Shown here in pieces: positions 15,530-64,000 of a DNA stretch of 64,000 nt. The translations under genes and the position numbers were made by a program. The notes under the pieces were generated by a model. The model did not search any database, was not told the DNA's origin, and worked only from the letters and a program-made list of their open reading frames with translations. Location: contig JASEEY010000001.1 of assembly GCA_030018435.1 (NCBI GenBank), positions 11,038 to 75,037 of the forward strand, written 5' to 3'. How positions within the stretch are numbered: the stretch's first letter is position 1; the number at the start of each line of letters is the position of its first letter. Source of the DNA: Methanocellales archaeon. Its GTDB lineage: Archaea; Halobacteriota; UBA148; JAUWXC01.

Positions 15530-15561
15530 GAGCTCACTTTTTCTTTTTTGCTGACATTAAA

Positions 15562-15790
15562 TAGCGGGGAGTGGATTTGAACCACTGATCTACGGGTATC
15601 CCACGATTTTCGAAAGGGGCGATCGTTTAGTACACTGCTTCAGGTGCACTTTCTTTTTTTGTATTTATAATCATAGTACTGTTGAATGAAGCGAATGTAG
15701 CACATTTTGACTAAATTGTTTTTGATCAACCTTTTTCTTAAAAAGGTTGGTTATGAGCCCGTCGGGATCTCCTGACTACCCCACCCCGCT
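15562..15790 (-). tRNA. tRNA-Met(CAU), initiator-like (A1:U72, three G:C pairs in the anticodon stem), with intron of about 154 nt (15598-15751) at 37/38
   Basis: Hand-folded from the reverse complement. 5' exon: AGCGGGGUGGGGUAGUCAGGAGAUCCCGACGGGCUCAUA. 3' exon: ACCCGUAGAUCAGUGGUUCAAAUCCACUCCCCGCU-A. Anticodon stem ACGGG/CCCGU, loop CUCAUAA, GGUUCAAAUCC T-loop. Confidence 0.7.
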
Positions 15791-15811
15791 ATGGTGTTAT
15801 ATAAGCCACAT

Positions 15812-16120
15812 CTATGTCTTGATGCTCTCTCGTTTGCTCAGCGTTGCCTGAATCTCGTCCAGCAACTCGTCCTCGGTCTTACCCTCGGTGGCAATGCCAA
15901 GCTCCTCTGCCATCTTTATTACCTTGCCTTTCTTCGCTCCCTTTGGTGCAGCTTCTAGGGATCGTTCAAACTCGCTCAATTCTTTCTCAGCTTCTCTCTG
16001 CGCCTTCTTGAACTCACCCATGGATTTGCCTACCGAGCGAGCCAGCTCTGGCAACTTCGACGCTCCAAAGAGGAGGATGATGATTACGCCTATGATCATT
16101 ATCTCATTTGGACCGATCAT
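15812..16120 (-). CDS. tatA: Tat translocase TatA/E-family protein
   Basis: N-terminal TM helix MIGPNEIMIIGVIIILLFGASKLPE followed by an amphipathic helix and an acidic tail. Confidence 0.85.
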   Translation of the reverse strand: MIGPNEIMIIGVIIILLFGASKLPELARSVGKSMGEFKKAQREAEKELSEFERSLEAAPKGAKKGKVIKMAEELGIATEGKTEDELLDEIQATLSKRESIKT

Positions 16121-31908: not shown

Positions 31909-31916
31909 GATATCGC

Positions 31917-32858: not shown

Positions 32859-34106
32859 TTACAAATCAACCCCAAGGTACCGATCCATGAGCTCCAGAGC
32901 ACAGTATTCTCCGCACATCGTGCATCCTTTGGCCTGAGGATGAATTTCTCGCGCCCTTTCTCCATCGAGAGCGAGCTCGAACTGTCCCTTCCAGTCGCGT
33001 CGTCGACGCATCTTGGCCAGTTCGAGATCCCTAGCAGATGGGCCATATTTCAATGAATCTCCTATGTGAGCGGCGATGCGAAAAGCGATCGTGCCCTCCC
33101 TAACCTGATCGAGATTCGGCAGGGCGAGGTGCTCAGATGGTGTGATATAGCATAGATAGTCAGCACCCGCTCCACTTGCGATACTGGCGCCGACACATGC
33201 GGCGATGTGATCGTAGCCCACTGCGACATCGATGGGCAGCGGTCCAGCAACAAAAAGCGGTCGGTTGTCGATGATCTTCTTGTGATACTTGACGTATTTT
33301 TCGATGTCGCCGATCCAGACATGACCACCCATACCCTCAATGATTGCCTGAACCCCCATCCTATTGGCACGGTCTGCAAGTTCTGCGTTCGCTCTTATCT
33401 CCAACGATTGTGGATCGTCTCTTATGTCGTGTATGCACCCGCTTCTCATCGCATTTCCCAATGAAAGCACCGTATCCCTAGCACGCAAAATCTCAAGTAT
33501 CTCATCGAAACGCTCCAAGAACGGATTCTCGCTCTCGTGCTCGATCATCCAGGCTGATGTGAGCGATCCTCCTTTGGAGACCATTCCCATGACGCGCTGC
33601 GCCTCTCTCAACATTGATAGCATCTTCAACGTGAGACCGGCATGTATGACCACCGAGTTCACTCCCTCTCTCACTTGTTTTCGAATGGTTTCGATGATGT
33701 CTTCCTGAGTTATGGGACGAAATGAGCCGTGCTCCGCAACGGTTTGATAGACCGGCACCGTCGTCAGCGGCACGGGAACTGCCTGTAAGACACTTCGCCT
33801 TATCCGAACAATATCACCGCCCATCGATAGATCTGATATGGTATCTGCGCCATATTTCACGGCGATAATCGCCTTTTGAACTTCCAACTCTGGGTCAACC
33901 GCCACCGAGGACGTGCCGATGTTTGCGTTGATCTTCGTCCTGAGCCCTCTGCCAATGCCGATGGGATGTTGATGACTCATGATGACAACTTCACCATTGG
34001 CTACACCCCGTCGTATGATGTGCGCATCGACTCCTTCTTCGAGCGCAACGTGCCTCATTTCCTTCGTAACTATGCCCTGAGCGGCGCTCTCAATTTGCGT
34101 TTTCAT
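32859..34106 (-). CDS. thiC: phosphomethylpyrimidine synthase ThiC
   Basis: 415 aa. C-terminal CTMCGEYCAL is the CX2CX4C motif. Start is 1 nt after the purH stop. Confidence 0.8.
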   Translation of the reverse strand: MKTQIESAAQGIVTKEMRHVALEEGVDAHIIRRGVANGEVVIMSHQHPIGIGRGLRTKINANIGTSSVAVDPELEVQKAIIAVKYGADTISDLSMGGDIVRIRRSVLQAVPVPLTTVPVYQTVAEHGSFRPITQEDIIETIRKQVREGVNSVVIHAGLTLKMLSMLREAQRVMGMVSKGGSLTSAWMIEHESENPFLERFDEILEILRARDTVLSLGNAMRSGCIHDIRDDPQSLEIRANAELADRANRMGVQAIIEGMGGHVWIGDIEKYVKYHKKIIDNRPLFVAGPLPIDVAVGYDHIAACVGASIASGAGADYLCYITPSEHLALPNLDQVREGTIAFRIAAHIGDSLKYGPSARDLELAKMRRRRDWKGQFELALDGERAREIHPQAKGCTMCGEYCALELMDRYLGVDL

Positions 34107-34210
34107 GTCACACTTTATAACTATGTGACATCTCTTAAAATTTGGTATTTCGCACGTGCCAGCGATTCCTGAGGCGATTAGAAGAGAAATATCGCTGAAT
34201 TTGTGATCAT

Positions 34211-35053
34211 TTACTTTAGCGCATTCTTGGCTGCGGTTACGGTATTTTTCATGAGCATAGCTACGGTCATGGGACCCACGCCCCCGGGTACGGGCGTTAT
34301 GGTCGATGCCTTTTCCTTCACGCGTTCAAAGTCAACATCGCCATATAGTTTGCCACCCACCCTGTTGATCCCAACATCGATGACTGCTACGCCGTCCTTC
34401 ACCATTTCTTCGGTTATAAATTTTGCACGTCCAATGGCGACGACCAATATGTCCGCCTGTCCGGTATACCGCTCTAAATCCTTCGTCTTTGAGTGGCAAA
34501 TCGTGACCGTTGCATCCCTGTTCAGGAGCATCGCCGCCACGGGCTTGCCAACGATGTTGCTTCGTCCGACAACAACGGCGTGCTTGCCCGCGATCTTGAT
34601 GCCGGTTTTCTCCAACAGCGTTATGATGCCCGACGGAGTGCAGGGTGGCGTGCTCTCGTCGCCGGCCAGTAACCTGCCCATGTTGGCAGGATGAAATCCG
34701 TCCACGTCTTTCTCTGGGGCAATGCTGCACAGTACCGAGGGTTCATTCAGGTGAGATGGGAGGGGGAGCTGCACCAAGATTCCGTGAATCTTCTCATCCT
34801 GGTTCAATTTTTGAATAAGGCGAATCACATTTTCCTCTTTAACGTCTCCCGGAAAAGTGTGCTCCTCGTAATGAATGCCGATCTTTTCACACGCCTTCTT
34901 CTTCATCGATACATATATTCTGGAGGCGGGATCATCACCGACCAAAATGGTTGCCAGTCCTGGAGTCAAATGATGTTTATCCTTTAACTGTTTGACCTCA
35001 TGAATTAGCTCTTCCTGAATGCCAGCAGCAATTTGAGTACCGTCGATGATCAT
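34211..35053 (-). CDS. folD: methylene-H4-folate dehydrogenase/methenyl cyclohydrolase FolD
   Basis: 280 aa. KDVDGFHP, VVVGRSNIVGKP, PVPGGVGPMT. Confidence 0.9.
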   Translation of the reverse strand: MIIDGTQIAAGIQEELIHEVKQLKDKHHLTPGLATILVGDDPASRIYVSMKKKACEKIGIHYEEHTFPGDVKEENVIRLIQKLNQDEKIHGILVQLPLPSHLNEPSVLCSIAPEKDVDGFHPANMGRLLAGDESTPPCTPSGIITLLEKTGIKIAGKHAVVVGRSNIVGKPVAAMLLNRDATVTICHSKTKDLERYTGQADILVVAIGRAKFITEEMVKDGVAVIDVGINRVGGKLYGDVDFERVKEKASTITPVPGGVGPMTVAMLMKNTVTAAKNALK

Positions 35054-35062
35054 GACAAATCC

Positions 35063-36292
35063 TCAGTACAGTGGGAACCTGTTGCACAGTTCTGCAACCT
35101 CTTTTTTAATCCTATCCCTCGTCGCATTATCGCCAATGTTGAGTAGAACGTCGCTGATCATTTCTGCTATCCTTCTCATCTCCTCCTCTTTCAGCCCTCT
35201 CGTGGTAACGGCAGGCGTGCCTATTCGTATGCCAGAGGTGATGAACGGGCTCCTGGGATCAAAAGGAATGGTATTCTTGTTGACAATGATGTCCACCTCG
35301 CCCAGCGCCTCCTCCGCCTCCTTGCCCGTAATTCCCTTATCAGTTAGGTCGACCAATAGCAGATGGTTATCAGTTCCACCTGAAACGAGAGTGAATCCAC
35401 TATCCATCAACGTCTCAGCCAGCACCTTGGCGTTCTTGACAACCTGTCTCTGATATTCTTTAAAATCCTTGGTCATCGCCTGCTTGAATGTCACTGCTTT
35501 GGCAGCAATGGCATGCATCAGCGGACCGCCTTGAACGCCCGGGAAGACGGTTTTATCAATGACCTTGGCGAACTCCTCCTTGCAGAGAATAAAGCCACCT
35601 CTTGCGCCGCGCAACGTTTTGTGCGTCGTGCTCGTGACGAAATGCGAATGCGGCACGGGATTTTGATGTAGTCCGGCAGCTATCAATCCAGCGATGTGAG
35701 CCATGTCTACCATCAAGTATGCGCCAACCTCATCGGCAATTTTCCTAAACTCAGCAAAGTCAATCTCCCTTGGGTATGCACTGGCACCCGCTATGATGAG
35801 TTTTGGCTTGTGCTCTTTCGCCAATTTTCTTACCTGATCGTGGTCGATTCTCTGTGTCTCCCTGTCCACACCATACGAAACGGCATTGTAGAATTTCCCT
35901 GAGAAGTTCACAGGGCTGCCGTGCGTCAAATGTCCACCATGGGAAAGTTCCATGCCCATAATGGTATCGCCCACGTCTAGCACGGCAAAATAGACGGCCA
36001 TGTTGGCTTGTGCCCCCGAATGTGGTTGAACGTTCGCATACTCGGCGCCAAAAAGTTTCTTCGCCCTTTCGATGGCTAAATTCTCTACCACGTCCATGTA
36101 TTCGCAGCCGCCATAATATCTCCTCGACGGATAGCCTTCAGCATATTTATTCGTCATGACAGAACCTTGCGCCTCCAGCACCGCCTCGATCGCAAAGTTC
36201 TCAGAAGCGATCAACTGCAACCCAGACCTTTCACGCGTCTTTTCGGCAGCAATGGCTTTCGCCACCTCTGGATCTACCTCATTTAATTTCAA
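35063..36292 (-). CDS. glyA: serine hydroxymethyltransferase
   Basis: 409 aa. [12 protein letters not shown] (PLP Lys region), and SHMT-like throughout. Confidence 0.95.
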
Positions 36293-37818
36293 ATCGTTTC
36301 ACCTTTGCTGTGCCGCTTTCCCCATTCCTCTAGAGGGATGCTGTATTTTCGCTCGATTATGTCTCTAAAAGTTGGACCTGAATTATACGCGCAGAATGGG
36401 ATTATCCTTCGCTCTGGGTCTGGCGTGGCATAATGAATCACGCATCTCTTCACCCTCTCAATATCGTAATTATATGCATCCTGGAAGTGCATCGCACCTA
36501 TGAACAGCGCATTCCAGTGAAACTCTCCCAGCGATTTATAGTCCTGTTCCTTCAGCACTCGCTTGAGAACCGATTTGAGGTGTAAATCTTTTGGTTGCTT
36601 GTCATCATGTATGCATCTATTCAACGCCTTCAAACCCTTCATTAGAGCCCTAGTCTTAGCAAACCACCCGGAAGTCTTTAAGATGTCTACCGTATCATCA
36701 ACTGATGAAAAGAATTTATCCACATCTACGAATCGATTGATGGGAATGATATTACCATTGCTTACAAACGCATATGTCGCCACACCACAATGAGGATGCG
36801 CGCTGAACTCGATCTGTGGTTCTTTCCTGTATGCCTCAACCAGTTTAGATAACGATACAACGGATGGAACTGGATAGAAATCGGTTTTCCTGATCGCTCC
36901 GTCCGTTTGCTTTTCTATCCTATCCGCAAGATCGGGGATCGTAAACCTCTGCCGTTTTATATCATCAGCAGACGCCGCACCCGTGAATGCAATGGGCTGA
37001 AAATTAACACCCCGTATCACGTCGATGTTCTCCGCCGCAAAATAGAGGGTATCCCCTATTTCATGATCGTTAACGCCGTTGATGATGGTTGGAACGAGAA
37101 CGACACCTTGCCTTGCCTTTCTACAATTTTCAATCGCCTTCTTTCTGATCTCCAACAAGGGTTCCGTCTTTTTAGATGTCCCATCAAAGTGCAGATAAAC
37201 CGTGCTCAGCCCGGCATCTCTCAACGTCTGGGCCAACTCTGGCTCCCTTCCAAGCATGATGCCATTGGTCGCCATCTGTACCTGCAAGAAGCCCATTTCC
37301 TTGGCCATCTTGATCATATCAGGAAGGTCATCTCTGAGCGTTGGTTCTCCGCCAGAGAACTGAACCGCTATGGCAGGCACCGGTTGTTCGTTTCTTAAGG
37401 CAGAGAGCATCTCTCTTATCTGCTCCAACGACGGCTCATACACATATCCTCGCACGTTAGCATTGGCGAAGCAAAAATCACAAGATAAATTACACCTGTT
37501 GGTCACGTCGATGTTTGCCAAACACGTCGAACTTACGTGAAGGTTGCAGAGACCACAATCATCCGGGCAAGAAGAGGCCGTAATCTGGGGATTCTGAACG
37601 CCACTGCCGTCATATGCGTAATTCTCAGCCCTGAGATACATATCAACGTCTGACCAGTAAATGCCCTCAAAATATCCGTGAGCAGGGCACTCCTTGGACA
37701 TCCAGACGGCACCATCTCTCTCAAAGATATCCGCTTCTATAACTTTTCGACACTCGGGACATAAGGAGCTCGTTTTTTTAGGCAGTCCGCGTGGGAGTTT
37801 ACTTTGATATAAAGTCAT
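36289..37818 (-). CDS. radical SAM protein (509 aa) with N-terminal Cys-rich zinc-ribbon-like region; candidate cofactor-modifying enzyme
   Basis: [12 protein letters not shown] radical SAM motif. N-terminal CPECRK...CPAHG. 4-nt overlap with glyA. Confidence 0.7.
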
Positions 37819-43309: not shown

Positions 43310-43789
43310 ATGAAAGAGATACTTGAAATAATGGAGAACGACGCTAGAATCGGCATAGATGAGATCGCAGCTATGACCGGCATCCCTGAGTCTCAGGTAA
43401 AGAAGGCGATCAAAGAGGCTGAGGAGAAGGGCATCATCCGGAAATACAAGACCGTAATCGACTGGGAGAAATTCGGAGAGGAATATGTGTATGCAATAGT
43501 AGAATTAAAGGTGTCACCCGAGAGGAGCACAGGTTATGATGCGATAGCGAAGCGCATCGCCAAATTTCCAGAAGTGATATCGGTTAGGCTGGTCTCAGGA
43601 GATCATGACCTATCGCTATTGGTGAAAGGCAGGACGATGAAGGATGTCGCGTTTTTCGTCGCAGAAAAGGTAGCGCCACTTGAAAGGGTGCAGAGCACCG
43701 AGACCCATTTCATACTTAAAACCTACAAGCAGGATGGCGACATCTTTTATGAAAAGGAAGAGTCCAAGAGGTTGGCGATAACTCCATGA
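43310..43789 (+). CDS. Lrp/AsnC-family transcription regulator
   Basis: N-terminal HTH (IDEIAAMTGIPESQVKKAIKEAEEKGII) plus RAM domain. 159 aa. Confidence 0.8.
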   Translation: MKEILEIMENDARIGIDEIAAMTGIPESQVKKAIKEAEEKGIIRKYKTVIDWEKFGEEYVYAIVELKVSPERSTGYDAIAKRIAKFPEVISVRLVSGDHDLSLLVKGRTMKDVAFFVAEKVAPLERVQSTETHFILKTYKQDGDIFYEKEESKRLAITP

Positions 43790-44937
43790 TAGCAGAGAAA
43801 GTTCAGCGAATCCCACCATCTGGAATTCGTAAATTCTTCGAGATGGTCACAGGGATGGATGATGTGATATCATTGGGCGTCGGCGAGCCTGATTTTGTTA
43901 CGCCATGGCCCGTCAGGGAGGCTTGCATCTACTCTCTAGAAAAAGGATACACATCGTACACATCCAACTGGGGACTGCAGGAGTTGAGGGATGAGATAGC
44001 TCATGCCGTTGCCTCGGACTACGGCATTGCCTATAGCCCAGAGGATCAAATTTTAGTTACCACTGGCGTGAGCGAGGCGATAGACCTGGCAATGCGCGCC
44101 ATCACAAATCCCGGCGATGAAATCATCGTTGTGGAGCCTTGCTACGTATCGTATAACCCATGCGTGACATTGGCTGGAGGAAAACCCGTATCCGTCGCAA
44201 CGGACCCGTCAACTCACTTCAGGGTCACCCCGGAGCAGATAGAGGACAAAATAAAAGAGAAAACCAAAGCGGTCGTTTTGAATTATCCGAACAATCCAAC
44301 CGGAGCGATCATGAAGAAGAAGGATTTGGAGGCGGTGGCAGATGTGGTTGTGGAGCACGATCTTATCGTGATATCCGATGAGGTGTATGATAAATTGACA
44401 TATGATGGAAAGCACATGTGCTTTGCCTCACTAAATGGCATGCAGGATAGGACTATCTTACTCAACGGCTTCTCAAAGTCGTATGCGATGACTGGGTGGC
44501 GCATTGGCTATGCCGCCTCCACACCGGAGATAATAGGTGCAATGCTAAAAGTTCATCAGTATACGATGCTTTGCGCTCCAATTACGGCGCAGATGGCTGC
44601 CATTGAGGCACTGAGAAACGGCAGAGAAGATATGCTTGTCATGGTGAGGGAATACGACAGGAGGAGAAAACTCATCGTTAAGGCGCTCAACGCACTTGGA
44701 TTAGATTGTCTTGAGCCAAAAGGGGCGTTCTACGCGTTTCCATCGATAAAAAGCACGAGCATGAGTTCGGATGAATTTGCCGAGAAACTGCTGAAGGAGC
44801 AAAAGGTAGCAGTCGTGCCTGGAAACGTGTTTGGTGCATGTGGTGATGGGTTCATCCGATGCTCATATGCAACATCAAGAGATGCAATAAAAGAGGCGTT
44901 GGAGCGCATGGAGACGTTTTTAACTCCGAAAGGTTAA
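43786..44937 (+). CDS. class I/II PLP-dependent aminotransferase (aspartate aminotransferase family)
   Basis: 383 aa. SKSYAMTGWRIGY with the PLP-lysine region. NYPNNPTG. Confidence 0.85.
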   Translation: MIAEKVQRIPPSGIRKFFEMVTGMDDVISLGVGEPDFVTPWPVREACIYSLEKGYTSYTSNWGLQELRDEIAHAVASDYGIAYSPEDQILVTTGVSEAIDLAMRAITNPGDEIIVVEPCYVSYNPCVTLAGGKPVSVATDPSTHFRVTPEQIEDKIKEKTKAVVLNYPNNPTGAIMKKKDLEAVADVVVEHDLIVISDEVYDKLTYDGKHMCFASLNGMQDRTILLNGFSKSYAMTGWRIGYAASTPEIIGAMLKVHQYTMLCAPITAQMAAIEALRNGREDMLVMVREYDRRRKLIVKALNALGLDCLEPKGAFYAFPSIKSTSMSSDEFAEKLLKEQKVAVVPGNVFGACGDGFIRCSYATSRDAIKEALERMETFLTPKG

Positions 44938-57330: not shown

Positions 57331-59037
57331 ATGTTTCTCAAGTTTGAGAGCGAGGTGGGGTCTCTACTGCAAGATGCCATCAAAGCAGCTGGTTATGAAG
57401 TAGAGATGCTGTGCTTGGAAACGTCGGATTATGCCGATCTCGCATCGTCTGTTGCGTTCAAACTCGCGCCGAAGTATGAGAAGTCCCCCAAGCGCATCGC
57501 AGAAGATATATCGCGAAAAATTCGAATTCCCAAGAAGACGTTGATTGATAGGGTAGAGGTCAAAGGACCGTACATCAATTTTTACGTCAACAGGGAATTC
57601 CTGAATCAAACAATTCTACAGATTCTCAAAGAAGGCGAGAGATATGGGTCGCTCCCTAAGAAACGTCAGCGCATCATTCTAGAGCACACCTCTGCAAATC
57701 CAACTGGACCGTTGCATGTCGGCAGAGGGCGCAACCCCATAATAGGGGATACTCTCGTTAGGATGCTCAGGTGCGCCGGCTACGACGTCGAGGTGCAGTA
57801 TTACGTGAATGATATGGGTAAACAGGTTGCTGCAATTGTTTGGGGCTATGATAACGTAGAGCGAAATGCATTGCCGAAATTGGAGAGGGACAAACCCGAT
57901 CATGACGTTGTGCGATACTATCGGAAGGCGACCGAAATCATTGCCGAACGTCCTGACGTGGATTCTCAAATTGCCCAAATACTGAGCAGATATGAATTAG
58001 GCGATTCAAACACGATTGAGAGGTTCAAGAGGGTGGTGAATAAATGCATTGATGGGCAAAAACGAACCCTGGAGCGGCTCGATATCGCCTTTGACAGATA
58101 TGTATGGGAATCCCAATTTGTGATGGACGGCTCTGTGGATAAGGTCCTTGGGAAATTGAAAAAGACCAAGTACATAAAACAGGAGGATGGTGCGCTAGTG
58201 CTTGACCTAACCTCATTCGGAGTGGAAAAGGACTTTGTATTGACACGCTTCGATGGGACCACGCTCTACACAACAAGAGACATTGCCTACCATCTCTGGA
58301 AGTTTGATCACGCAGATATCGTGATAAACGTGCTCGGTGAGGATCAGAAGTTATCGATGGAACAGCTTAGATGCGCTCTCAAGATACTCGGATTAAGGAA
58401 AGAGCCTAAGATGATATTCTATTCATTTGTCTCGCTGCCAGAGGGGAGGATGTCCACGCGCAAGGGCGTTGTAGTCGACCTGGATGATTTACTGGACGAG
58501 GCATGCGAGAGAGCATACATCGAAGTCCAGAAAAGAAGACCTGAGTTATCTGAAAAGGAGAAGCGAAGGATCGCTGAGATCGTCGGCATGGGCGCAGTTA
58601 GGTTCGATATCATCAAGGTTGCTCCGGAAAAAATGATGACGTTTAAATGGGAGGAGGCGCTGGACTTTGAGAAACAGGGGGCGCCGTTCATCCAGTATTC
58701 CCACGCAAGGGCGTGCAGCATTTTGAAAAAGGCGAGAAAAATCGGGCATGGATTCGATTCTTCTCTGCTTACAGCACCAGAGGAGGTAGAACTAATCAAG
58801 AAGATGGCACTTCTCCCGAGCATAGTGGATTCGGCGGCGCAAGACCTGAAACCGTACGTCGTGGCAACCTATGCAAGGGAGCTGGCTGAGACGTTTAATC
58901 AATTCTATCGCGCAGTGCCGGTGCTAAAGGCAGAGGAGGCACTGAGAGATGCAAGATTGTCCCTTGTGAACTGCACAAGGATCGTTTTAGCTAATGTGCT
59001 GAATCTGCTGGGCATTACGGCTCCAGAGTCGATGTAG
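57331..59037 (+). CDS. argS: arginyl-tRNA synthetase
   Basis: 568 aa class I enzyme with PTGPLHVGRGRN and a C-terminal anticodon-binding domain. Confidence 0.9.
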   Translation: MFLKFESEVGSLLQDAIKAAGYEVEMLCLETSDYADLASSVAFKLAPKYEKSPKRIAEDISRKIRIPKKTLIDRVEVKGPYINFYVNREFLNQTILQILKEGERYGSLPKKRQRIILEHTSANPTGPLHVGRGRNPIIGDTLVRMLRCAGYDVEVQYYVNDMGKQVAAIVWGYDNVERNALPKLERDKPDHDVVRYYRKATEIIAERPDVDSQIAQILSRYELGDSNTIERFKRVVNKCIDGQKRTLERLDIAFDRYVWESQFVMDGSVDKVLGKLKKTKYIKQEDGALVLDLTSFGVEKDFVLTRFDGTTLYTTRDIAYHLWKFDHADIVINVLGEDQKLSMEQLRCALKILGLRKEPKMIFYSFVSLPEGRMSTRKGVVVDLDDLLDEACERAYIEVQKRRPELSEKEKRRIAEIVGMGAVRFDIIKVAPEKMMTFKWEEALDFEKQGAPFIQYSHARACSILKKARKIGHGFDSSLLTAPEEVELIKKMALLPSIVDSAAQDLKPYVVATYARELAETFNQFYRAVPVLKAEEALRDARLSLVNCTRIVLANVLNLLGITAPESM

Positions 59038-60076
59038 AAACTCCCGCACCTGCGAACGTAGCCATTTCTTTCAATATCTTTGTGCTCGCTTCCACAATGC
59101 TTATCCCAAGAGCTGCTCCAGTCCCCTCCCCCAGTCGCATGCGTAGGTCGAGAAGTGGCCTCAAGCCCATTCTTTCTAACATGACCCTGTGACCTATCTC
59201 GACCGAATTGTGAGAGGCAATTATATACTGCTTTGCCAGAGGGGCGAGTTCTGTTGCAAGAAGGGCGCCAGCAGTGGAGATAAATCCATCTGTTACCACC
59301 GGTATCCTATGGGCCGCTGCACCCAAGACTACACCAGCCAATCCACCAATCTCAAAGCCTCCAACTTTTGCCAGAACATCTAAAGGGTCATTTTTGTCTG
59401 GAGAGTTGACCTTCAGTGCCTTTTTAATCACCCGTACCTTAGCCTCCAGCGCAGTATCATCAATTCCCGTTCCCCTGCCAGTAACTCTTTCAACTTTTTC
59501 CCCTGTGACGGCGGCCACGATTGCGCTGGATGGAGTTGTGTTTCCAATGCCCATGTCCCCTGTTCCCACGACATCCAGGCCTTTCTCCAACTCCTCTTCA
59601 AAGACTTCTATCCCTGCTTCAATCGACCTCACCGCTTGTTCGCTACTCATAGCCGGGCCCTTAGTCATGTTTTTCGTTCCATAGTCCACTTTTTTATTCA
59701 CTAGATTCTGATGCTCCATGTCAGCAGCCACACCCATATCGACAACTACAACTCTGGCACCAACATGTCTAGCTAGAACATTTATACCCGCCCCGCCCCT
59801 AATGAAATTATAAACCATCTGAGGAGTCACTTCCTGAGGATATGCGCTTACTCCTTCTTCGACCACACCATGATCACCAGCCATCGTTATGATCACTTTA
59901 TCACGTATTCTGGGCATGGAATTTCTTGTAATCCCTGCCACTTGAATTGATAAATCTTCTAGTATCCCTAAACTCTCCTTGGGCTTGGTCAGGAGGTCTT
60001 GCCTTTCCTTGGCAAGTCTCATTGCCCTTTCATCCAGCGACTCAATTTGATCAATCGTTTCTCTGATTTTCTGCAT
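59015..60076 (-). CDS. cobT: archaeal CobT-like nicotinate-nucleotide-dimethylbenzimidazole phosphoribosyltransferase homolog
   Basis: 353 aa with CobT-family sequence (GDMGIGNTT). Confidence 0.7.
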   Translation of the reverse strand: MQKIRETIDQIESLDERAMRLAKERQDLLTKPKESLGILEDLSIQVAGITRNSMPRIRDKVIITMAGDHGVVEEGVSAYPQEVTPQMVYNFIRGGAGINVLARHVGARVVVVDMGVAADMEHQNLVNKKVDYGTKNMTKGPAMSSEQAVRSIEAGIEVFEEELEKGLDVVGTGDMGIGNTTPSSAIVAAVTGEKVERVTGRGTGIDDTALEAKVRVIKKALKVNSPDKNDPLDVLAKVGGFEIGGLAGVVLGAAAHRIPVVTDGFISTAGALLATELAPLAKQYIIASHNSVEIGHRVMLERMGLRPLLDLRMRLGEGTGAALGISIVEASTKILKEMATFAGAGVSTSTLEP

Positions 60077-60085
60077 ATTATCCTC

Positions 60086-60703
60086 TTAAGACTGCACCCT
60101 CTCCAGCACGGTATATGCCGCTGCCCATGCTGCCAGGTTTGCCTCCTCCTCGGTCTCACCGGTCCCTACTACCAAGACGTCGCCCTCTTTCATTTTCATG
60201 TCCTCGCAGAGTACTCTCATGCGCATCCGCATGCGTTCATCAGCGGTGATTGCAGGAATCCTTGGGCCGTCTTTGTCAAATACGAGCGTGGATGCACCCA
60301 TGGTACCTGCTGAAATTGCGGCATCCCTCTGTTCCATTCCAGATTTTATGAGCCTAGCAACGTCTCTGATGAGGACTGCACTGTTCGCTTTTCCAAGCGT
60401 TATCATGCCCGTTTCTATCTTTGGCTGATATGAGACCATCTTTTTGAAATTTGCCAGCATTTCATTCCCTTTTTCGGTTAGCTGACATCCAGTTGGAGAG
60501 GCACAGACCAACCCTTGATCTTGCAACTTCCTGATCAGAGTGCGTACTGTTCCCTCACCCACGTCAAGACGTCCTGCCAATGTCTTTCTACCCATCGGAT
60601 TTTCCCCAAGAATGAAGAAGGCCATGACCACGTGAAACTCCGAATAGTTAGGTGACAAACCCCTCTTTGGTGTGCCCAGCTCCTTTGCAATCTTTACGAT
60701 CAT
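60086..60703 (-). CDS. hypothetical protein with winged-helix-like segment
   Basis: RKTLAGRLDVGEGTVRTLIRKLQDQGLV. The start is uncertain; the track ORF to 60772 overlaps the ATPase gene. Confidence 0.4.
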   Translation of the reverse strand: MIVKIAKELGTPKRGLSPNYSEFHVVMAFFILGENPMGRKTLAGRLDVGEGTVRTLIRKLQDQGLVCASPTGCQLTEKGNEMLANFKKMVSYQPKIETGMITLGKANSAVLIRDVARLIKSGMEQRDAAISAGTMGASTLVFDKDGPRIPAITADERMRMRMRVLCEDMKMKEGDVLVVGTGETEEEANLAAWAAAYTVLERVQS

Positions 60704-60710
60704 ATCATAC

Positions 60711-61997
60711 TCACCTCGCCATTTTTTCGATGATTGGTAAAACCTCTTCTGGGCTATGCAGAACAATTGCACCGTTACTTTTTAGCCTAGTGTAGATTTT
60801 CTTTGCCTCGCCATGGGTAAAGTCTCTTTGCTCGATAGGCGTCTCCTCTATGAGAAGTACTGGCTTGTTTTCCAAAGCGAGTTCGGCTGCTTCTAGGTTT
60901 TTTAAGTTACCATAGCCAAATGGTATATTCGTCAACACAACTACATCTGCTTGATCAATTAGTCCTAGATTGGCTTCGTGCATCTCGCAAGAAATGGGAG
61001 AGAAAGGGGCCTCGCTAACTATGGGAATACCTAGACGCTGATGCGTTTCGTGATCGGTATCTATTGCATTAAGCACACCTGCGGTTACCTGGTGCCCTTT
61101 CTCGATGAGAAGATGCATCAACTGCGAGCCAGTACCAGCGCCACATATTATGTGAATGACAAATGGGCTTCGCCCTTTTGAAACCCCCTCATGGAAGGGG
61201 GTCGAGGGAAGTAAAGTAACATATATCGAATTGGTTGCAGGATGTCTTTTCACTAACACCTCTGCATCATATACCCTTTTGATGTTTTCAGCCGTCAGAA
61301 CTTTTTCTGGCGAGCCAAGAGAAAATATCTTCCTCTGATGAAGTAACATGAGAAGATCGCAGTAGAGGGCAGCCAAATTAAGGTCATGGAAGACCGCTAT
61401 GATGATCATCTTTTCTTCCCTGTTCAACCTTTTGATCAAGTTTAATATCTCTATCTGGTGGTTGATATCTAGATGCATGGTGGGTTCATCTAGAAGAAGG
61501 ACTTTGGGTTCTTGTGCGAGAGCCCTAGCAATGACGATCCGTTGTCTTTCCCCTCCACTTAACTCAGTGATCGGTCTTTGGGAAAGGTGGCGTGTATTGG
61601 TTAACTTCATGGCCTTTTTGGCTATGGCTAAATCCTTAGCGCTTTCGATCTCAAATCTACCTAGGTGGGGGGTGCGCCCCATGAGCACGATCTCCAACGC
61701 CGTAAAGTCAAAACTTATTGGCGATTCCTGAGGTACAACAGCTAAATTTCTGGCCACCTCTTTGCTGGGCAGAGCATAAATATTTTTTTCGTTCAAAAGA
61801 ACCGTTCCTATGTGGGGACGCATCGTCCTGCTAATACTCCTGAGCAAAGTCGTTTTGCCCGATCCGTTTGGTCCCAACACACCTACAAAGTCGCCTCCAC
61901 TGGCGGAGAACTCAATGTTCTCCAGAATCTCGGCGCTCTCATAGCGACAAGCGATGTTATTAATTTTTAGCGTAATGAATGACATTATTATCACCAC
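60711..61997 (-). CDS. ABC transporter ATP-binding protein (BtuD/FecE type) fused to a C-terminal domain of about 175 aa with unknown function
   Basis: GPNGSGKTTLL, LSGGERQR, LLLDEPT, then a Rossmann-like FVIHIICGAGTGSQ... extension. Confidence 0.8.
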   Translation of the reverse strand: MVIIMSFITLKINNIACRYESAEILENIEFSASGGDFVGVLGPNGSGKTTLLRSISRTMRPHIGTVLLNEKNIYALPSKEVARNLAVVPQESPISFDFTALEIVLMGRTPHLGRFEIESAKDLAIAKKAMKLTNTRHLSQRPITELSGGERQRIVIARALAQEPKVLLLDEPTMHLDINHQIEILNLIKRLNREEKMIIIAVFHDLNLAALYCDLLMLLHQRKIFSLGSPEKVLTAENIKRVYDAEVLVKRHPATNSIYVTLLPSTPFHEGVSKGRSPFVIHIICGAGTGSQLMHLLIEKGHQVTAGVLNAIDTDHETHQRLGIPIVSEAPFSPISCEMHEANLGLIDQADVVVLTNIPFGYGNLKNLEAAELALENKPVLLIEETPIEQRDFTHGEAKKIYTRLKSNGAIVLHSPEEVLPIIEKMAR

Positions 61998-63044
61998 CTA
62001 GAACATCGACCTCTTTCTCCTGCGCAAAAGGTAAACGAAGAACGGAGCGCCAAAGAGCGCCGTGATGATGCCCACTGGTATCTCTGTAGGGGCGATGATC
62101 GTTCTAGCAAGGGTGTCTGCCCAGACCAAGAAAATTCCTCCTACAAGAGCAGAGCTAGGAAGAAGAATTCGGTGGTCCGGTCCAACTAAAATTCTCACAA
62201 TGTGGGGAATTATCAGGCCAACGAACCCGATTATTCCACTAACAGCCACTGCCGCTGCGGTAATCAAAGAAGCTGAGACCATCATGACCTTTTTCAGGGC
62301 CTCCACCTCTATTCCCAGATGCTGAGCTGGCTCTTCGCCTAGAAGCATTACATTCAAATCCCGAGCGAAGATGTAGATGACCGACGTGCCAACACAGATC
62401 CAGGGAAGGACCATCCAAACACGATCCCATGAGCTGGCCCACAATCCCCCCATCAACCAAAAGACGATCCCATGTAATCTCTCGCCGGAGATGTACATCA
62501 TAAATGAAGTGATGGCTGATAGAAAAAGGCTCACTGCTATCCCAGCAAGTAGTAATGTTCCTACAGGCAGCCTTCCTCCCACGCTTGCGATATTATAGAC
62601 AAGAAAGATAGCACCCACGGCGAAGATAAAAGCCATCAAGGGCATGGTGTACACGCTCATGTGAGCAAGTCCAAGCATGGCTAAGGTCGCCCCCAGAGCG
62701 GCGCCAGAGGAGATTCCAATTATGTAGGGATCTGCCATGGGATTTTTGAATAGTCCTTGCATCGTCGCACCAGCGACGCTAAGTGCCCCTCCTACCAATA
62801 TTCCCAAGAGGATCCTAGGTAGTCGAATCTGAAGAACTATGGTTTCCTCGGCAATAGACCTAGAGGGGGCAACCAAGCCATTTACCAAAGGCAATCTACT
62901 GATTAGTATCTTTAAAACAACTAGGGGGGCTATCTGCGCAGGACCCAAGGTTGTCGCTAGGACAATAGTCAACCCTAAGATCCCCGTTAGGTAAACTACA
63001 ATTAATCTCCATTGTAGAACCTTTTCGAGATAATTTTTATACAA
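61998..63044 (-). CDS. FecCD/BtuC-family ABC permease
   Basis: 348 aa, about 10 TM helices, BtuC-like. Confidence 0.85.
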
Positions 63045-63717
63045 TCCTCACAACCTCGTACTTTAAACTTTCATCGCCTTTTAAACAAGATACATTGCGC
63101 AGGTACTTTCTTGCTATGTTTACAGCGCTCTCTACTTCTTCTTTCATTGGAGCTCTCCAAGGGGTTTCTGGAACGGGGGTGTATGCGTCTATCCTATATG
63201 GAATGCTTGGGTCGACGCTGGCTATAAACCGAGCAATGTTTTCGATTTCATCGCAACCGATGTAGTTTGGTATAAGGATGCTTTCCGATCTTAGCCTGAC
63301 ACCGGACCGATAGAGATTCACAAAATTTTCCAATACTTTTTTATTCGATTTTCCTGTGAAGTCTTTGTGCAGGGTGTTGCTATGGGCTTTTAAACTTAGA
63401 CACACCTCATCTATATCATCGAGCGACGGAAGAAAGAAACCATTCGTGAGTAAGATATTATATGCGTGGAGCTCACAATGAATTAACTCTGCCAACTCCT
63501 GCAATTGAGGGTCTATGGTGGGTTCCCCACCCATGAAAACAACTTTTTCGATTTCTAGATTTCTCAAGTTGTCGATTACCTCCTTTAAGTCAAGAAGCAG
63601 GGTTTTTGTCGCCAAATCTTTTTTACGGATGCATCCTCTGCAATCGAAGTTACAGCCCCAGAAATACAGACAAACCGTTTTAGTGGTAGGAGCATAAGTG
63701 ATGTGGTAGATGTTCAT
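63037..63717 (-). CDS. small radical SAM protein (QueE/NrdG-like organic radical activase family, 226 aa) embedded in the transporter operon
   Basis: GCNFDCRGC is a CxxxCxxC motif. FMGGEPT. Overlaps both neighbours. Confidence 0.7.
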   Translation of the reverse strand: MNIYHITYAPTTKTVCLYFWGCNFDCRGCIRKKDLATKTLLLDLKEVIDNLRNLEIEKVVFMGGEPTIDPQLQELAELIHCELHAYNILLTNGFFLPSLDDIDEVCLSLKAHSNTLHKDFTGKSNKKVLENFVNLYRSGVRLRSESILIPNYIGCDEIENIARFIASVDPSIPYRIDAYTPVPETPWRAPMKEEVESAVNIARKYLRNVSCLKGDESLKYEVVRIV

Positions 63718-64000
63718 TGATAACCGCCTCCCTCGAATAATTCTGGGTGTATATACCTAGCCATCTCCTCTAGCCCATCCACTATCCTAGGTCCGGCCCT
63801 AGCAACGAGATCTGTATCTATCCCATGGATTCGATCGCTCCTAGCAGCAGATATGTTTGTGTCTTGCAACAAAACCCTCATATTCTCAACCGTCGGTCCT
63901 CCAGCACCGTGCCTTGAAGAAACTATGATGATATCTGGATTGCGCTCAATCAGCATCTCCAAGCTGTAGACAGGATATTCTGTTTTAGCATCGCCAGCGA
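63714..64000 (-). CDS. periplasmic substrate-binding protein of BtuF/FecB type, C-terminal part; 5' end beyond the window
   Basis: The frame is open to the window end. ...NPDIIIVS... resembles class III SBPs. Confidence 0.55.
   Translation of the reverse strand, partial: AGDAKTEYPVYSLEMLIERNPDIIIVSSRHGAGGPTVENMRVLLQDTNISAARSDRIHGIDTDLVARAGPRIVDGLEEMARYIHPELFEGGGYQ

What the first reader, a model, noticed from the sequence alone, without database searches (positions are those of the whole stretch)
59015..64000. BtuFCD-like importer operon with an embedded small radical SAM enzyme and an ATPase fused to an unknown 175-aa domain, next to cobT
On the minus strand the order is substrate-binding protein, a 226-aa radical SAM (CNFDCRGC), permease, then an ABC ATPase with a C-terminal Rossmann-like extension (FVIHIICGAGTGSQ...). 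This is followed by a wHTH-containing protein and a CobT homolog. The radical SAM overlaps both the SBP and permease genes by 4 and 8 nt, so it is part of the transporter transcript. An organic-radical-activase or QueE-like enzyme inside a corrinoid or siderophore-type uptake operon is not a textbook arrangement. It could indicate coupled import and modification of a corrinoid or 7-deazapurine precursor. The fused domain on the ATPase is uncharacterised.
Basis: partly seen in the sequence, partly recalled or inferred. Interest (0 to 1): 0.65.

Follow-up and report, generated by a model that had tools for sequence, protein, structure and literature searches.

The report
Radical SAM enzyme inside B12 importer operon
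A methanogen-related archaeon carries a vitamin-B12-type uptake operon with a small, uncharacterised radical SAM enzyme built into it; the same pairing recurs in about 70 other anaerobic bacteria and archaea, which suggests an unstudied enzymatic step in how microbes recycle B12-like cofactors.

Summary
On the minus strand, tightly packed or overlapping, lie a BtuF-like binding protein, a 226-aa radical SAM (rSAM) enzyme, a FecCD permease, an ABC ATPase with a ~155-aa C-terminal domain, a wHTH/DUF4443 protein and CobT.

- **Its context:** I found 71 non-redundant loci from at least 12 phyla. The binding protein is present in 60, and nucleotide-loop assembly genes are common. A cobalamin riboswitch precedes 6 of 9 bacterial loci scanned.
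- **Recurrent partners:** the PP-loop ATPase "DUF71-B12" (predicted in 2012 to act in B12 salvage, untested), an Asn-synthase-like protein, a CbiE-like methylase, CbiZ and a "cobopeptide" rSAM system.
- **The ATPase extension:** it is Pfam PF27219 (MJ0874), fused in all 120 best archaeal homologues. It is a generic Rossmann-like fold, not TOBE, CbiZ or DRTGG.

My best reading is a corrinoid importer coupled to a cytoplasmic radical processing step. The reaction itself is unknown. I class it as a new variant of a known kind, of moderate to high interest.

The parts
63714..64000 (-). 3' part of the BtuF-like substrate-binding lipoprotein gene. The gene continues beyond the window end; the full protein is 316 aa on contig L001.
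   Evidence: The full protein has Peripla_BP_2. Its best PDB hit is the vitamin B12-binding protein 5ysc (E 6.5e-34), with E. coli BtuF at about 1e-23. NCBIfam BtuF NF002894 scores 127 bits, below the cut-off of 234. The N-terminus carries a lipobox, LSGC.
63037..63717 (-). Small single-cluster radical SAM enzyme, 226 aa, CX3CX2C at residues 22-29. It belongs to an unnamed PflA-like family linked to corrinoid importers.
61998..63044 (-). FecCD/BtuC-type permease, 348 aa, TTG start overlapping the rSAM stop by 8 nt.
   Evidence: PF01032 at 334 bits. The best NCBIfam model is NF007081 'vitamin B12 ABC transporter permease BtuC' at 378.8 bits, below its cut-off of 461.
61215..61997 (-). ABC ATPase domain of the BtuD-like subunit (residues 1 to about 261).
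   Evidence: PF00005 at 110 bits. The best NCBIfam model is NF007082 'corrinoid ABC transporter ATPase' at 353.8 bits, below its cut-off of 537; that alignment extends to residue 360 and so reaches into the extension. The best PDB hits, FhuC and HmuV, cover only residues 8-255.
60711..61181 (-). C-terminal MJ0874-type (Pfam PF27219) Rossmann-like domain fused to the ATPase (residues about 273-428, plus the stop codon).
60086..60706 (-). wHTH plus DUF4443 protein (PH0730-like), 206 aa. Candidate operon regulator.
   Evidence: PF14544 at 72.8 bits; PF22167 at 45.5; CggR_N at 43.1. PDB 2p8t (PH0730) at E 2.5e-14. The same gene sits in the same position in L081, L162 and L009, and next to the AsnS-like/rSAM/DUF71 genes in L028 and L029.
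59015..60076 (-). CobT, nicotinate-nucleotide:dimethylbenzimidazole phosphoribosyltransferase. Last gene of the operon; its 3' end overlaps the 3' end of the convergent arginyl-tRNA synthetase gene (57331..59037).
   Evidence: TIGR03160 at 464.5 bits, above its cut-off of 319.3; PF02277 at 466 bits.

Best explanation
The region is the distal five and a half genes of a corrinoid (B12-family) uptake and late-assembly operon of a Methanocellales archaeon: (DUF71-B12)-BtuF-rSAM-BtuC-BtuD::MJ0874-wHTH/DUF4443-CobT. It is transcribed divergently from CobQ-like, CobD and CbiB genes.

Shown. BtuFCD is a type II ABC importer whose nearest characterised relatives carry corrinoids. The embedded rSAM is a bona fide SAM-cleaving, single-[4Fe-4S], minimal PflA-like enzyme. 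It belongs to a compact family whose genomic home across many anaerobic phyla is this kind of importer or salvage operon.

Inferred. The rSAM works in the cytoplasm on the corrinoid that has just been imported. It generates a 5'-deoxyadenosyl radical and uses it on the corrinoid, so that foreign or incomplete corrinoids can enter the CbiB, CobY/U, CobS/CobT nucleotide-loop pathway. In other genomes it acts together with the ATP-dependent carboxylate-activating enzymes DUF71-B12 and AsnS-like, CbiE-like methylases and CbiZ.

My preferred specific version is radical remodelling or repair of the f-side-chain/nucleotide-loop or corrin periphery, a route parallel to CbiZ. Its close sub-rival is direct radical adenosylation of cob(II)-corrinoid.

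The MJ0874 domain on BtuD is most likely a cytoplasmic nucleotide- or cofactor-binding module. It would either gate the importer (trans-inhibition, as the C-terminal domains of MetN and ModC do; that comparison is from my own knowledge) or receive the cargo.

The DUF4443 wHTH is most likely the operon's repressor. It would bind a TGGTTAAcTTAACCA palindrome placed just after the TATA box, taking the role that the cobalamin riboswitch plays in the bacterial versions.

Rough probabilities:
- corrinoid importer operon: 0.9
- rSAM functionally tied to corrinoid salvage: 0.8
- corrinoid itself is the rSAM substrate: 0.5
- remodelling or repair chemistry: 0.3
- radical adenosylation: 0.15
- DUF4443 is the operon regulator: 0.45
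- MJ0874 is regulatory or a cargo acceptor: 0.4
For: Transporter identity.

Translational coupling of the rSAM to the binding protein and the permease.

Conserved synteny.
- Binding protein-rSAM-permease-ATPase in Dehalococcoidia, Actinomycetota and a Methanocellales relative.
- In 71 non-redundant rSAM loci: binding protein in 60, directly adjacent in 45; permease in 50; ATPase in 49; DUF71-like in 39; CbiB and CobD in 34 each; AsnS-like in 29; CobA in 26; CobT in 24; TonB-dependent receptor in 21. Many contigs are short, so these are lower bounds.

Cobalamin riboswitch RF00174 lies directly upstream of the operons in 6 of 9 bacterial loci scanned, for example L002 6815-6958 before the binding protein at 7066.

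Compact dedicated family: only 149 cluster representatives at E<=1e-10 among 1.84 billion.

Paralogue expansion inside cobamide clusters: three copies interleaved with CbiZ and CbiE-like genes in Dehalogenimonas L047, and a second paralogue next to CbiZ in L035 and L037.

DUF71-B12 was independently tied to BtuCDF and CbiB and proposed to give a CbiZ-like route (PMC3541065). The copy upstream of this operon has the GEAGEYH signature.

Binding protein and rSAM were exchanged together between two Methanocellales: 56% and 53% identity, against 84% and 86% for permease and ATPase.

Regulator. The operator plus TATA box is conserved in L001, L081 and L162. No riboswitch was found in 8 archaeal loci.

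MJ0874. It has a GxGxG loop plus an acidic residue after beta-2, as in nucleotide-binding Rossmann folds. Its nearest folds include sensor or carrier Rossmannoids: NmrA, Moco carrier protein and TrkA.
Against: - No biochemical or genetic datum exists for any member. The substrate is inferred from gene neighbourhood only.
- The closest relatives, the glycyl-radical-enzyme activases, act on proteins rather than small molecules.
- In 10 loci the rSAM directly follows a peptide-maturase system (CbpA/CbpB). That fits a peptide substrate.
- CobA adenosyltransferase sits in at least 26 of the same loci, which argues against the adenosylation version.
- CbiZ co-occurs with DUF71-like and rSAM genes in L035, L047 and L072, which argues against a simple CbiZ replacement.
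- The importer works without the rSAM in Bathyarchaeia. Remnant rSAM fragments in L075 and L076 show the gene can be lost.
- A mirror-tree test found no special co-evolution of the rSAM with the binding protein (r 0.53, against 0.52 and 0.50 for permease and ATPase).
- The window's copy lacks a 12-aa loop holding a D-x-H motif that is near-invariant in the family.
- The DUF4443 family at large is not cob-linked: only about 3 of 42 metagenome loci of at least 5 kb. The operator is conserved only among close Methanocellales.
Confidence: 0.5

Rival explanations
1. The rSAM is a protein or peptide maturase, as its PflA-like fold suggests. It would modify a ribosomal peptide (the 'cobopeptide' CbpA) or a component of the uptake system. 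The product would help capture or chaperone corrinoid or cobalt, rather than the enzyme touching the corrinoid itself.
For: PflA is the nearest structure and the only significant PDB sequence relative. In 10 loci the small rSAM lies immediately downstream of CbpB, which scores 501 bits on TIGR04163 'peptide-modifying radical SAM enzyme CbpB' against a cut-off of 375. A conserved 35-56-aa ORF with the core YRxKCxxxxxGLSH[YF]V lies directly upstream of CbpB in 9 of them. Asn-synthase-like enzymes are also used as peptide cyclases (lasso-peptide hits).
Against: CbpA/CbpB occur in only 10 of 71 rSAM loci. They are absent from the window and from all archaeal and Dehalococcoidia loci. The tightly packed window operon leaves no room for a precursor ORF. 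The binding protein is exported, so it is not an obvious cytoplasmic target.
Confidence: 0.18
2. The rSAM directly makes the cobalt-carbon bond. Its 5'-deoxyadenosyl radical recombines with imported cob(II)-corrinoid to give the adenosylated form that CbiZ, CbiB and CobU/Y need, bypassing the cob(I) requirement of CobA-type adenosyltransferases.
For: - Adenosylation is the first step after uptake in all known salvage routes (summarised in PMC3541065).
- The enzyme is minimal, with a single cluster and no auxiliary domain.
- No CobA gene lies in the archaeal operons seen here: the window, L081, L162, L009 and L048.
Against: CobA is encoded in the same operon in at least 26 loci. Up to three rSAM paralogues occur in one cluster, and the recurrent amidoligase and methylase partners are not explained by a single adenosylation step.
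Confidence: 0.15
3. The rSAM destroys the imported tetrapyrrole to release its metal, an anaerobic counterpart for cobalt of the ChuW/HutW haem-degrading rSAM enzymes found in haem uptake operons.
For: There is precedent, from my own knowledge, for an rSAM enzyme inside a tetrapyrrole uptake operon. Riboswitch repression when B12 is replete would fit a scavenging function. The ANME/Methanosarcinales locus L079 has binding protein-rSAM-permease-ATPase without cob genes.
Confidence: 0.05
4. The rSAM is an ordinary housekeeping enzyme (QueE, NrdG or another glycyl-radical activase) that merely happens to lie in the operon.
For: Source databases label homologues 'pyruvate formate-lyase activating enzyme'. 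There are weak hits to NrdG2 (39.7 bits), YjjW activase (43.6) and QueE (23-25).
Against: All these scores are far below the curated cut-offs of 131-260 bits. No glycyl-radical enzyme, NrdD or queCDF gene lies in the window or in the 71 loci. The same position is kept across at least 12 phyla.
Confidence: 0.03

Closest known systems
BtuFCD corrinoid ABC importer (E. coli BtuFCD; Halobacterium sp. NRC-1 BtuFCD, the basis of NCBIfam NF007081/NF007082)
   Same: The three components are the same: a class III Peripla_BP_2 binding protein, a FecCD permease and an ABC ATPase. The best structural and family matches are the B12-specific members. The operon is clustered with cob genes, and in bacterial orthologous operons it lies behind a cobalamin riboswitch. 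The haloarchaeal ATPase model also covers the first ~90 residues of the C-terminal extension.
   Different: An rSAM gene is translationally coupled between btuF and btuC. All three components score below the curated equivalog cut-offs. No transport assay exists for this clade.
Pyruvate formate-lyase activating enzyme (PflA) and other glycyl-radical-enzyme activases
   Different: About 20% identity, and scores far below the family cut-offs. No glycyl-radical enzyme partner is present. The genomic context is corrinoid uptake. The family has its own invariant signatures: MN[IV]YHI[TA]Y at the N-terminus, and IPYRID.Y and PWR.P near the C-terminus.
DUF71-B12 subgroup of PP-loop ATPases (de Crecy-Lagard et al. 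2012, PMC3541065)
   Same: The gene immediately upstream of this operon's btuF, just outside the window, belongs to that subgroup (PF01902 at 209 bits; GEAGEYH signature). As in that paper, it sits next to btuFCD and cbiB.
   Different: That study did not report the rSAM. Here the DUF71-type gene is a recent ~850-nt insertion, absent from a 93%-identical relative. DUF71-like and CbiZ co-occur in some of the loci found here, unlike the strict bacterial anticorrelation reported there.
CbiZ / CbiR cobamide-remodelling enzymes
   Same: Same logical place in the pathway: between import and re-attachment of the nucleotide loop by CbiB, CobS and CobT. CbiZ genes are neighbours of the rSAM in 9-13 loci.
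   Different: Those enzymes are hydrolases with unrelated folds. No activity is known for the rSAM. CbiR is cited from my own knowledge and from the title of PMC7733943.
C-terminal regulatory domains of ABC importer ATPases (MetN C2/NIL, ModC and MalK TOBE)
   Same: An extra cytoplasmic domain of about 100-160 aa follows the nucleotide-binding domain, which suggests regulation of transport by an internal ligand (my inference).
   Different: The fold is a Rossmann-like three-layer sandwich with a GxGxG loop, not a TOBE beta-barrel or an ACT-like C2 domain. The ligand is unknown.
PH0730 (PDB 2p8t) / DUF4443 archaeal wHTH proteins
   Same: Same two-domain architecture, aligned over residues 14-200 (E 2.5e-14).
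   Different: The main family is housekeeping, next to a GPN-loop GTPase in 47 of 80 loci and archaeal SAM synthetase in 26 of 80. The operon copy is a diverged paralogue, 34-41% identical, recruited into cob/btu operons of Methanocellales and Hadarchaeota.

Membership tests
Radical SAM superfamily | CX3CX2C motif for the SAM-binding [4Fe-4S] cluster | tested here: met
   C22, C26 and C29 (CNFDCRGC) are invariant in 59 family members. PF04055 scores 57.2 bits against a cut-off of 29.5.
Radical SAM superfamily | SAM-binding motifs (GGE and others) and a partial (beta/alpha)6 barrel | tested here: met
Radical SAM superfamily | Reductive cleavage of SAM demonstrated | not testable with these tools
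   This needs anaerobic biochemistry.
Glycyl-radical-enzyme activases (PflA, NrdG, YjjW) | Score above the curated family thresholds | tested here: not met
   PFLA TIGR02493 scores 26.5 against 231.75. NrdG2 scores 39.7 against 131.15. NrdG scores 30.2 against 126.1. YjjW scores 43.6 against 250.2.
Glycyl-radical-enzyme activases (PflA, NrdG, YjjW) | A cognate glycyl-radical enzyme encoded nearby | tested here: not met
   None was found among the large ORFs of the window, or among the labelled and recurrent unlabelled neighbours in 71 loci.
Glycyl-radical-enzyme activases (PflA, NrdG, YjjW) | PflA-like minimal fold | tested here: met
QueE (7-carboxy-7-deazaguanine synthase) | Score above the QueE thresholds, and queC/queD/folE context | tested here: not met
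BtuFCD corrinoid importer | Peripla_BP_2 binding protein, FecCD permease and ABC ATPase in one operon | tested here: met
BtuFCD corrinoid importer | Equivalog-level similarity to characterised BtuF, BtuC and BtuD | tested here: inconclusive
   These are the best-scoring models but lie below their cut-offs: BtuC NF007081 at 378.8 against 461; BtuD NF007082 at 353.8 against 537; BtuF NF002894 at 127.4 against 234. The best PDB match of the binding protein is a B12-binding protein.
BtuFCD corrinoid importer | B12-related genomic or regulatory context | tested here: met
   CobT is in the operon. CobQ-like, CobD and CbiB genes are divergent. An RF00174 riboswitch lies upstream of orthologous bacterial operons.
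BtuFCD corrinoid importer | Corrinoid transport demonstrated | not testable with these tools
   This needs uptake assays.
Pfam PF27219 (MJ0874 domain) | Match to the family model | tested here: met
   The precomputed annotation of the identical protein P0274 and of 120 of 120 best homologues carries it. The model is absent from the local Pfam copy.
CobT (NaMN:DMB phosphoribosyltransferase) | Score above the equivalog threshold | tested here: met
   TIGR03160 scores 464.5 against 319.3, and NF000996 scores 462 against 306.
DUF4443 / PH0730-like wHTH proteins | N-terminal wHTH plus C-terminal DUF4443 | tested here: met
   PF22167 scores 45.5 against 30.2, and PF14544 scores 72.8 against 27. PDB 2p8t gives E 2.5e-14.
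DUF71-B12 (gene upstream of the window, same operon) | ENGE[F/Y]H-type motif replacing the Dph6 EGGE/DxE motif; adjacency to btuFCD | tested here: met
   The protein has GEAGEYH. It scores below the Dph6 equivalog cut-off, 129.5 against 197.3. It overlaps the btuF start by 4 nt.

The most novel reading that the evidence does not exclude
The small rSAM founds a family of corrinoid-modifying radical enzymes. Together with DUF71-B12, an Asn-synthase-like ligase, CbiE-like methylases and sometimes a 'cobopeptide' system, it would form an unrecognised, B12-regulated salvage or remodelling pathway. Many uncultivated anaerobes (Dehalococcoidia, Omnitrophota, Nitrospirota, Hadarchaeota, Bathyarchaeia, methanogen relatives) would use it to turn foreign or damaged corrinoids into usable cofactor. 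In archaea the pathway would be controlled by a protein regulator (a DUF4443 paralogue) in place of the riboswitch.
Probability: 0.4. Interest if true: 0.8.

Novelty: new variant of a known kind. Interest (0 to 1): 0.62.

Why it matters
Most microbes that need B12-family cofactors cannot make them and depend on salvage. The known salvage enzymes (CobA, CbiZ, CbiR, CobU/Y, CbiB, CobS/T) do not include any radical enzyme.

A dedicated rSAM family sits in riboswitch-controlled salvage operons of dozens of anaerobic lineages. These include organohalide-respiring Dehalococcoidia relatives and methane-cycle archaea. That points to missing chemistry in cobamide recycling and remodelling, a process that shapes nutrient exchange in anoxic communities.

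The family also gives a concrete partner for the DUF71-B12 family, whose role has been open since 2012. The locus further supplies two testable leads. One is a candidate archaeal regulator with its operator, for an operon type that bacteria control with riboswitches. The other is a widespread extra domain on archaeal BtuD ATPases.

If the finding is wrong, the locus is still a well-annotated example of an archaeal corrinoid importer operon.

Tried and rejected
- **QueE, NrdG or other named rSAM families:** rejected on scores and context.
- **TOBE, CbiZ, CobK or DRTGG for the ATPase extension:** rejected.
- **Informative domain fusions of the rSAM family:** none found. The only one is a ThiS-like fusion in a distant relative, which probably belongs to the tungsten-cofactor maturase branch.
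- **CbpA-like precursor peptide in the window or in loci without CbpB:** none.
- **Asn-synthase-like, CobA or CbiZ genes in the window:** none by phmmer. The aminotransferase at 43786-44937 is a general one, not CobD.
- **Mirror-tree test for special co-evolution of rSAM and binding protein over 30 loci:** inconclusive (partial r 0.18).
- **DUF4443 as a generally B12-linked family:** rejected. The family at large is housekeeping.
- **The Methanocellales operator elsewhere:** absent from the window at up to 2 mismatches. Absent from the other 79 loci held at that point; it was later also found in L162. No comparable palindrome lies upstream in the Hadarchaeota loci.
- **A riboswitch in archaeal loci:** none.
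- **Literature:** searches for the rSAM, MJ0874, TIGR04163, DUF4443 or any rSAM in btu operons found nothing relevant except the DUF71-B12 paper.
- **Foldseek against AFDB50, to find cultured hosts:** the library was unavailable.
- **The word-index search with the C-terminal domain alone:** only 3 hits. The full-length ATPase search was needed instead.

Full report
**1. What is in the window**

The genes are:
- the 3' part of a binding-protein gene (>64000..63714);
- a 226-aa radical SAM (rSAM) gene (63717..63037) with C22-N-F-D-C26-R-G-C29;
- a FecCD permease (63044..61998);
- an ABC ATPase of 428 aa (61997..60711);
- a wHTH/DUF4443 gene (probable ATG at 60706, ending at 60086);
- cobT (60076..59015), which converges on an arginyl-tRNA synthetase gene.

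The junctions are a 4-nt ATGA overlap, an 8-nt overlap, a direct stop-start abutment, a 4-nt gap and a 9-nt gap. This is one transcription unit with translational coupling.

Family scans give Radical_SAM, FecCD, ABC_tran, DUF4443 with a PH0730-like wHTH, and CobT. Only CobT passes an equivalog threshold (TIGR03160, 464.5 against 319.3).

The rSAM protein is 100% identical to a protein from a Methanocellales MAG (P0001).

**2. What lies just beyond the window**

A public contig carrying the identical rSAM (L001) overlaps the window's last 1.3 kb. It shows the rest of the operon.
- The binding protein is a 316-aa lipoprotein (lipobox LSGC).
- It is preceded, with a 4-nt overlap, by a PP-loop ATPase of the Diphthami_syn_2 family.
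- Two CobQ-like genes without a glutaminase domain, CobD with its Cys-rich domain, and CbiB are transcribed divergently.

The binding protein's best solved relative is a vitamin B12-binding protein (5ysc, E 6.5e-34; E. coli BtuF about 1e-23). The permease and ATPase score best on the archaeal BtuC and 'corrinoid ABC transporter ATPase' models, although below their cut-offs. The locus is therefore a corrinoid uptake and late cobamide-assembly cluster.

**3. The radical SAM enzyme**

No curated family claims it. The best NCBIfam hits are tungsten-cofactor maturase, YjjW activase and NrdG2, all at about 1e-10 to 1e-12 and far below threshold. The QueE models score 23-25 bits against cut-offs of 206-260.

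A profile of the family finds only PflA in the whole PDB (E 2.4e-6). The GGE, TNGF and K..D..H....G.SN motifs are aligned. It is thus a genuine minimal, single-cluster, activase-like rSAM enzyme. It nevertheless fails the activase membership tests, both on score and on the absence of any glycyl-radical enzyme nearby.

The family is compact. Only 149 representatives reach E<=1e-10 among 1.84 billion cluster representatives. It is also strongly conserved, with invariant MN[IV]YHI[TA]Y, LLTNG, IPYRID.Y and PWR.P signatures.

**4. Conservation of the arrangement**

Homologues of 52-62% identity in Dehalococcoidia and Actinomycetota sit in the same order: binding protein, rSAM, permease, ATPase. 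They are followed by CobA, CobQ, CobT, CobS, CbiB, CobD or CobU.

A scan of one genome per species returned 68 loci. They come from Dehalococcoidia, Hadarchaeota, Bathyarchaeia, Nitrososphaeria, Altarchaeum, Methanomethylicia, Omnitrophota, Nitrospirota, Planctomycetia, Thermodesulfobacteriota, Calditrichales and Lentisphaera. Nearly all are MAGs.

I labelled all ORFs with reference proteins. Among 71 non-redundant rSAM loci the counts were:
- binding protein in 60, directly adjacent in 45;
- permease in 50 and ATPase in 49;
- DUF71-like PP-loop ATPase in 39;
- CbiB in 34 and CobD in 34;
- Asn-synthase-like protein lacking its glutaminase domain in 29;
- CobA in 26 and CobT in 24;
- TonB-dependent receptor in 21;
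- CbpB in 10, CbiZ in 9-13 and CbiE-like methylase in 6.

Two layouts dominate. One is binding protein-rSAM-permease-ATPase. The other is AsnS-like-DUF71-(CbpB)-rSAM-binding protein-permease-ATPase-CobA.

Cobalamin riboswitches lie directly upstream of the operons in 6 of 9 bacterial loci scanned. None occurs in 8 archaeal loci.

The family extends to an ANME/Methanosarcinales locus (31% identity, same N-terminus) with the same four-gene order but no cob genes.

Conversely, Bathyarchaeia have binding protein-permease-ATPase(MJ0874)-DUF71-CobT-CobS-CobY with no rSAM. Two Dehalococcoidia loci retain only rSAM fragments. The rSAM is therefore an accessory of the importer that can be dispensed with, whereas the rSAM itself essentially always travels with such an importer or with cob genes.

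**5. Prior knowledge**

Full-text searches found no paper on an rSAM in btu or salvage operons, on MJ0874, on TIGR04163 or on DUF4443.

The one relevant paper is de Crecy-Lagard et al. 2012 (PMC3541065). It defined the 'DUF71-B12' subgroup, of which 75 of 102 members lie next to BtuCDF. The subgroup carries the signature ENGE[F/Y]H and is anticorrelated with bacterial CbiZ. The authors proposed a CbiZ-like or alternative pseudo-B12 salvage role that remains untested. That paper does not mention the rSAM.

The PP-loop gene upstream of this operon has GEAGEYH and so belongs to that subgroup.

**6. Local evolution**

A 93%-identical relative (L162) has the same operon and promoter but no DUF71 gene. 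In the window's genome an insertion of about 850 nt brought in the DUF71-B12 gene together with a new signal-peptide coding start for btuF. It left a short remnant of the old start.

A more distant Methanocellales (L081) has a CbiE-like methylase between btuF and the rSAM. Its binding protein and rSAM are only 56% and 53% identical to the window's, while permease and ATPase are 84% and 86% identical. This indicates a cassette exchange of the binding protein together with the rSAM.

Across 30 loci, however, a mirror-tree test shows no special co-evolution of rSAM and binding protein.

The rSAM is under purifying selection (dN/dS 0.34 against 0.25 for the permease; few differences).

The loop after the cluster motif is indel-prone. 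The window and L162 carry different 12-aa deletions. The window's deletion removes a D-x-H motif present in more than 90% of the family.

**7. The ATPase extension**

Residues about 270-428 have no hit in the local Pfam copy. The identical database protein and all 120 best full-length homologues carry PF27219 'MJ0874'. These homologues come from Bathyarchaeia, Methanosarcinales, Methanophagales, Halobacteriota and Methanocellales.

The haloarchaeal corrinoid ATPase model also covers part of the extension. The fusion is therefore widespread and catalogued, but uncharacterised.

Conserved motifs are HxICGxGxG, TxG, DxD, PFSP, GxGNLxN and RDFTxG. The confident AF2 model (pLDDT 94.1) indicates a Rossmann-like nucleotide- or cofactor-binding fold.

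I infer a regulatory or cargo-accepting role, with modest confidence.

**8. The wHTH/DUF4443 protein**

It aligns with PH0730 (2p8t) over its whole length. It occupies the same operon position in L081, L162 and Hadarchaeota L009, and it neighbours the AsnS-like/rSAM/DUF71 genes in L028 and L029.

The divergent promoter, 1.9 kb beyond the window end, is conserved in three Methanocellales. It reads CTATATAAAG, then the perfect palindrome TGGTTAAcTTAACCA, then a second related site 21 bp downstream. This is a typical layout for an archaeal repressor.

The DUF4443 family at large is not cob-linked. Among 42 metagenome loci of at least 5 kb, only about 3 have cob or DUF71 neighbours. The usual neighbours are a GPN-loop GTPase and archaeal SAM synthetase. 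The operon copy is thus a recruited paralogue, and its role as a regulator is a hypothesis.

**9. Mechanism**

Shown:
- the operon is an importer of the corrinoid type;
- the rSAM has every sequence and structural hallmark of a SAM-cleaving enzyme;
- it has a tight, phylum-spanning, riboswitch-controlled association with corrinoid uptake and nucleotide-loop assembly genes.

Inferred: the enzyme acts in the cytoplasm on the imported corrinoid.

I favour a remodelling or repair role alongside DUF71-B12, AsnS-like, CbiE-like and CbiZ. These recurrent partners are all enzymes of the corrin periphery or the nucleotide loop. In addition, the family has expanded to up to three paralogues inside cobamide clusters, as expected if different paralogues handle different cobamides.

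Direct radical adenosylation of cob(II)-corrinoid is chemically attractive. It fits the lack of CobA in the archaeal operons. It is weakened by CobA being present in at least 26 of the loci.

A peptide or protein substrate remains a serious rival. The fold is activase-like. In 10 bacterial loci the rSAM also follows the CbpA/CbpB 'cobopeptide' system, whose conserved precursor-like ORF I identified. That system is absent here and from most loci.

**10. Verdict**

The transporter, CobT and the fused domain are known kinds. The embedded rSAM family and its conserved link to corrinoid salvage appear unreported in the literature I could search.

I classify this as a new variant of a known kind. 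Interest is 0.62. It is a solid, experimentally tractable lead into missing salvage chemistry, but no function has been demonstrated.

Noticed in passing
L034 6406-6567 and 6650-7999; also L031, L039, L049, L052, L056, L061, L068, L074: A 'cobopeptide' system lies inside B12-riboswitch-controlled salvage operons of Nitrospirota, Omnitrophota and relatives. A conserved 35-56-aa ORF (core [AS]YRxKCxxxxxGLSH[YF]V[LM]) sits directly upstream of a SPASM radical SAM enzyme. That enzyme matches TIGR04163 CbpB at 501 bits against a cut-off of 375. The small ORF has no NCBIfam hit. No paper was found.
   Followed up: partly
L001 3266-3310 (about 1.9 kb beyond window position 64000); L081 5562-5604; L162 about 905-950: The divergent promoter is conserved in three Methanocellales. 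It has a TATA-like CTATATAAAG, then the perfect palindrome TGGTTAAcTTAACCA, then a second related site (TGGATATATTA[T/A]CCA) 21 bp downstream. It is a candidate operator for the operon's wHTH/DUF4443 protein. No copy lies inside the window.
   Followed up: partly
L001 3369-4219 compared with L162 about 1011-1024: In the window's genome, an insertion of about 850 nt carries the DUF71-B12 PP-loop ATPase gene and a new signal-peptide coding start. It has been placed into the 5' end of btuF. A 93%-identical relative lacks it, and a remnant of the old btuF start remains at about L001 3334-3368.
   Followed up: yes
window 63600-63640 (rSAM residues about 33-45): The loop after the cluster motif differs between the window and its 93%-identical relative L162, through two different 12-aa deletions relative to longer homologues. 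The window form has lost a D-x-H motif that is present in more than 90% of the family and resembles the WDTH segment of PflA (the PflA comparison is from my own recollection).
   Followed up: partly
L047 4163-8741 (Dehalogenimonas sp. complete MAG chromosome CP139473.1): Three paralogues of the small rSAM (4909-5640, 6378-7199, 8001-8741) are interleaved with a DUF71-like gene, a CbiE-like methylase and a CbiZ gene; a second CbiZ and a second CbiE-like gene lie further downstream (13466-15841). A second paralogue of about 290 aa also sits next to CbiZ in L035 and L037.
   Followed up: no
L001 1835-3239 (minus strand); L081 4229-5535: Two adjacent CobQ-like genes (291 and 178 aa) match only the N-terminal ATPase half of cobyric acid synthase and lack the glutaminase domain. 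The Asn-synthase-like proteins in related loci also lack their glutaminase domain.
   Followed up: no
L025 12323-13048; L075 10265-10996; L077 3630-4277: An unknown protein of 215-241 aa, annotated PF27252 AF_1314_C on L077, recurs in corrinoid salvage loci. It has no hit in the local Pfam or NCBIfam copies.
   Followed up: no
L082-L161 (80 metagenome loci): The main DUF4443/PH0730 family is usually next to a GPN-loop GTPase (47 of 80 loci) and archaeal SAM synthetase (26 of 80). It therefore looks like a housekeeping archaeal gene whose function is unknown.
   Followed up: partly
window 30664-37818 (minus strand): A run of one-carbon, purine and lipid genes: a pterin-binding protein, PurH-like, ThiC, FolD, serine hydroxymethyltransferase and the tetraether lipid synthase Tes. 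ThiC passes the ThiC cut-offs and scores below the BzaB cut-off. Tes scores 712 bits. All are ordinary, and none is a glycyl-radical enzyme.
   Followed up: yes
L079 1-4991 (ANME/Methanosarcinales contig): Two very large binding proteins (more than 1173 aa and 654 aa) precede the rSAM-permease-ATPase(MJ0874) genes, with no cob genes nearby. The first carries PQQ-like beta-propeller repeats and the second a PGF-CTERM anchor.
   Followed up: no
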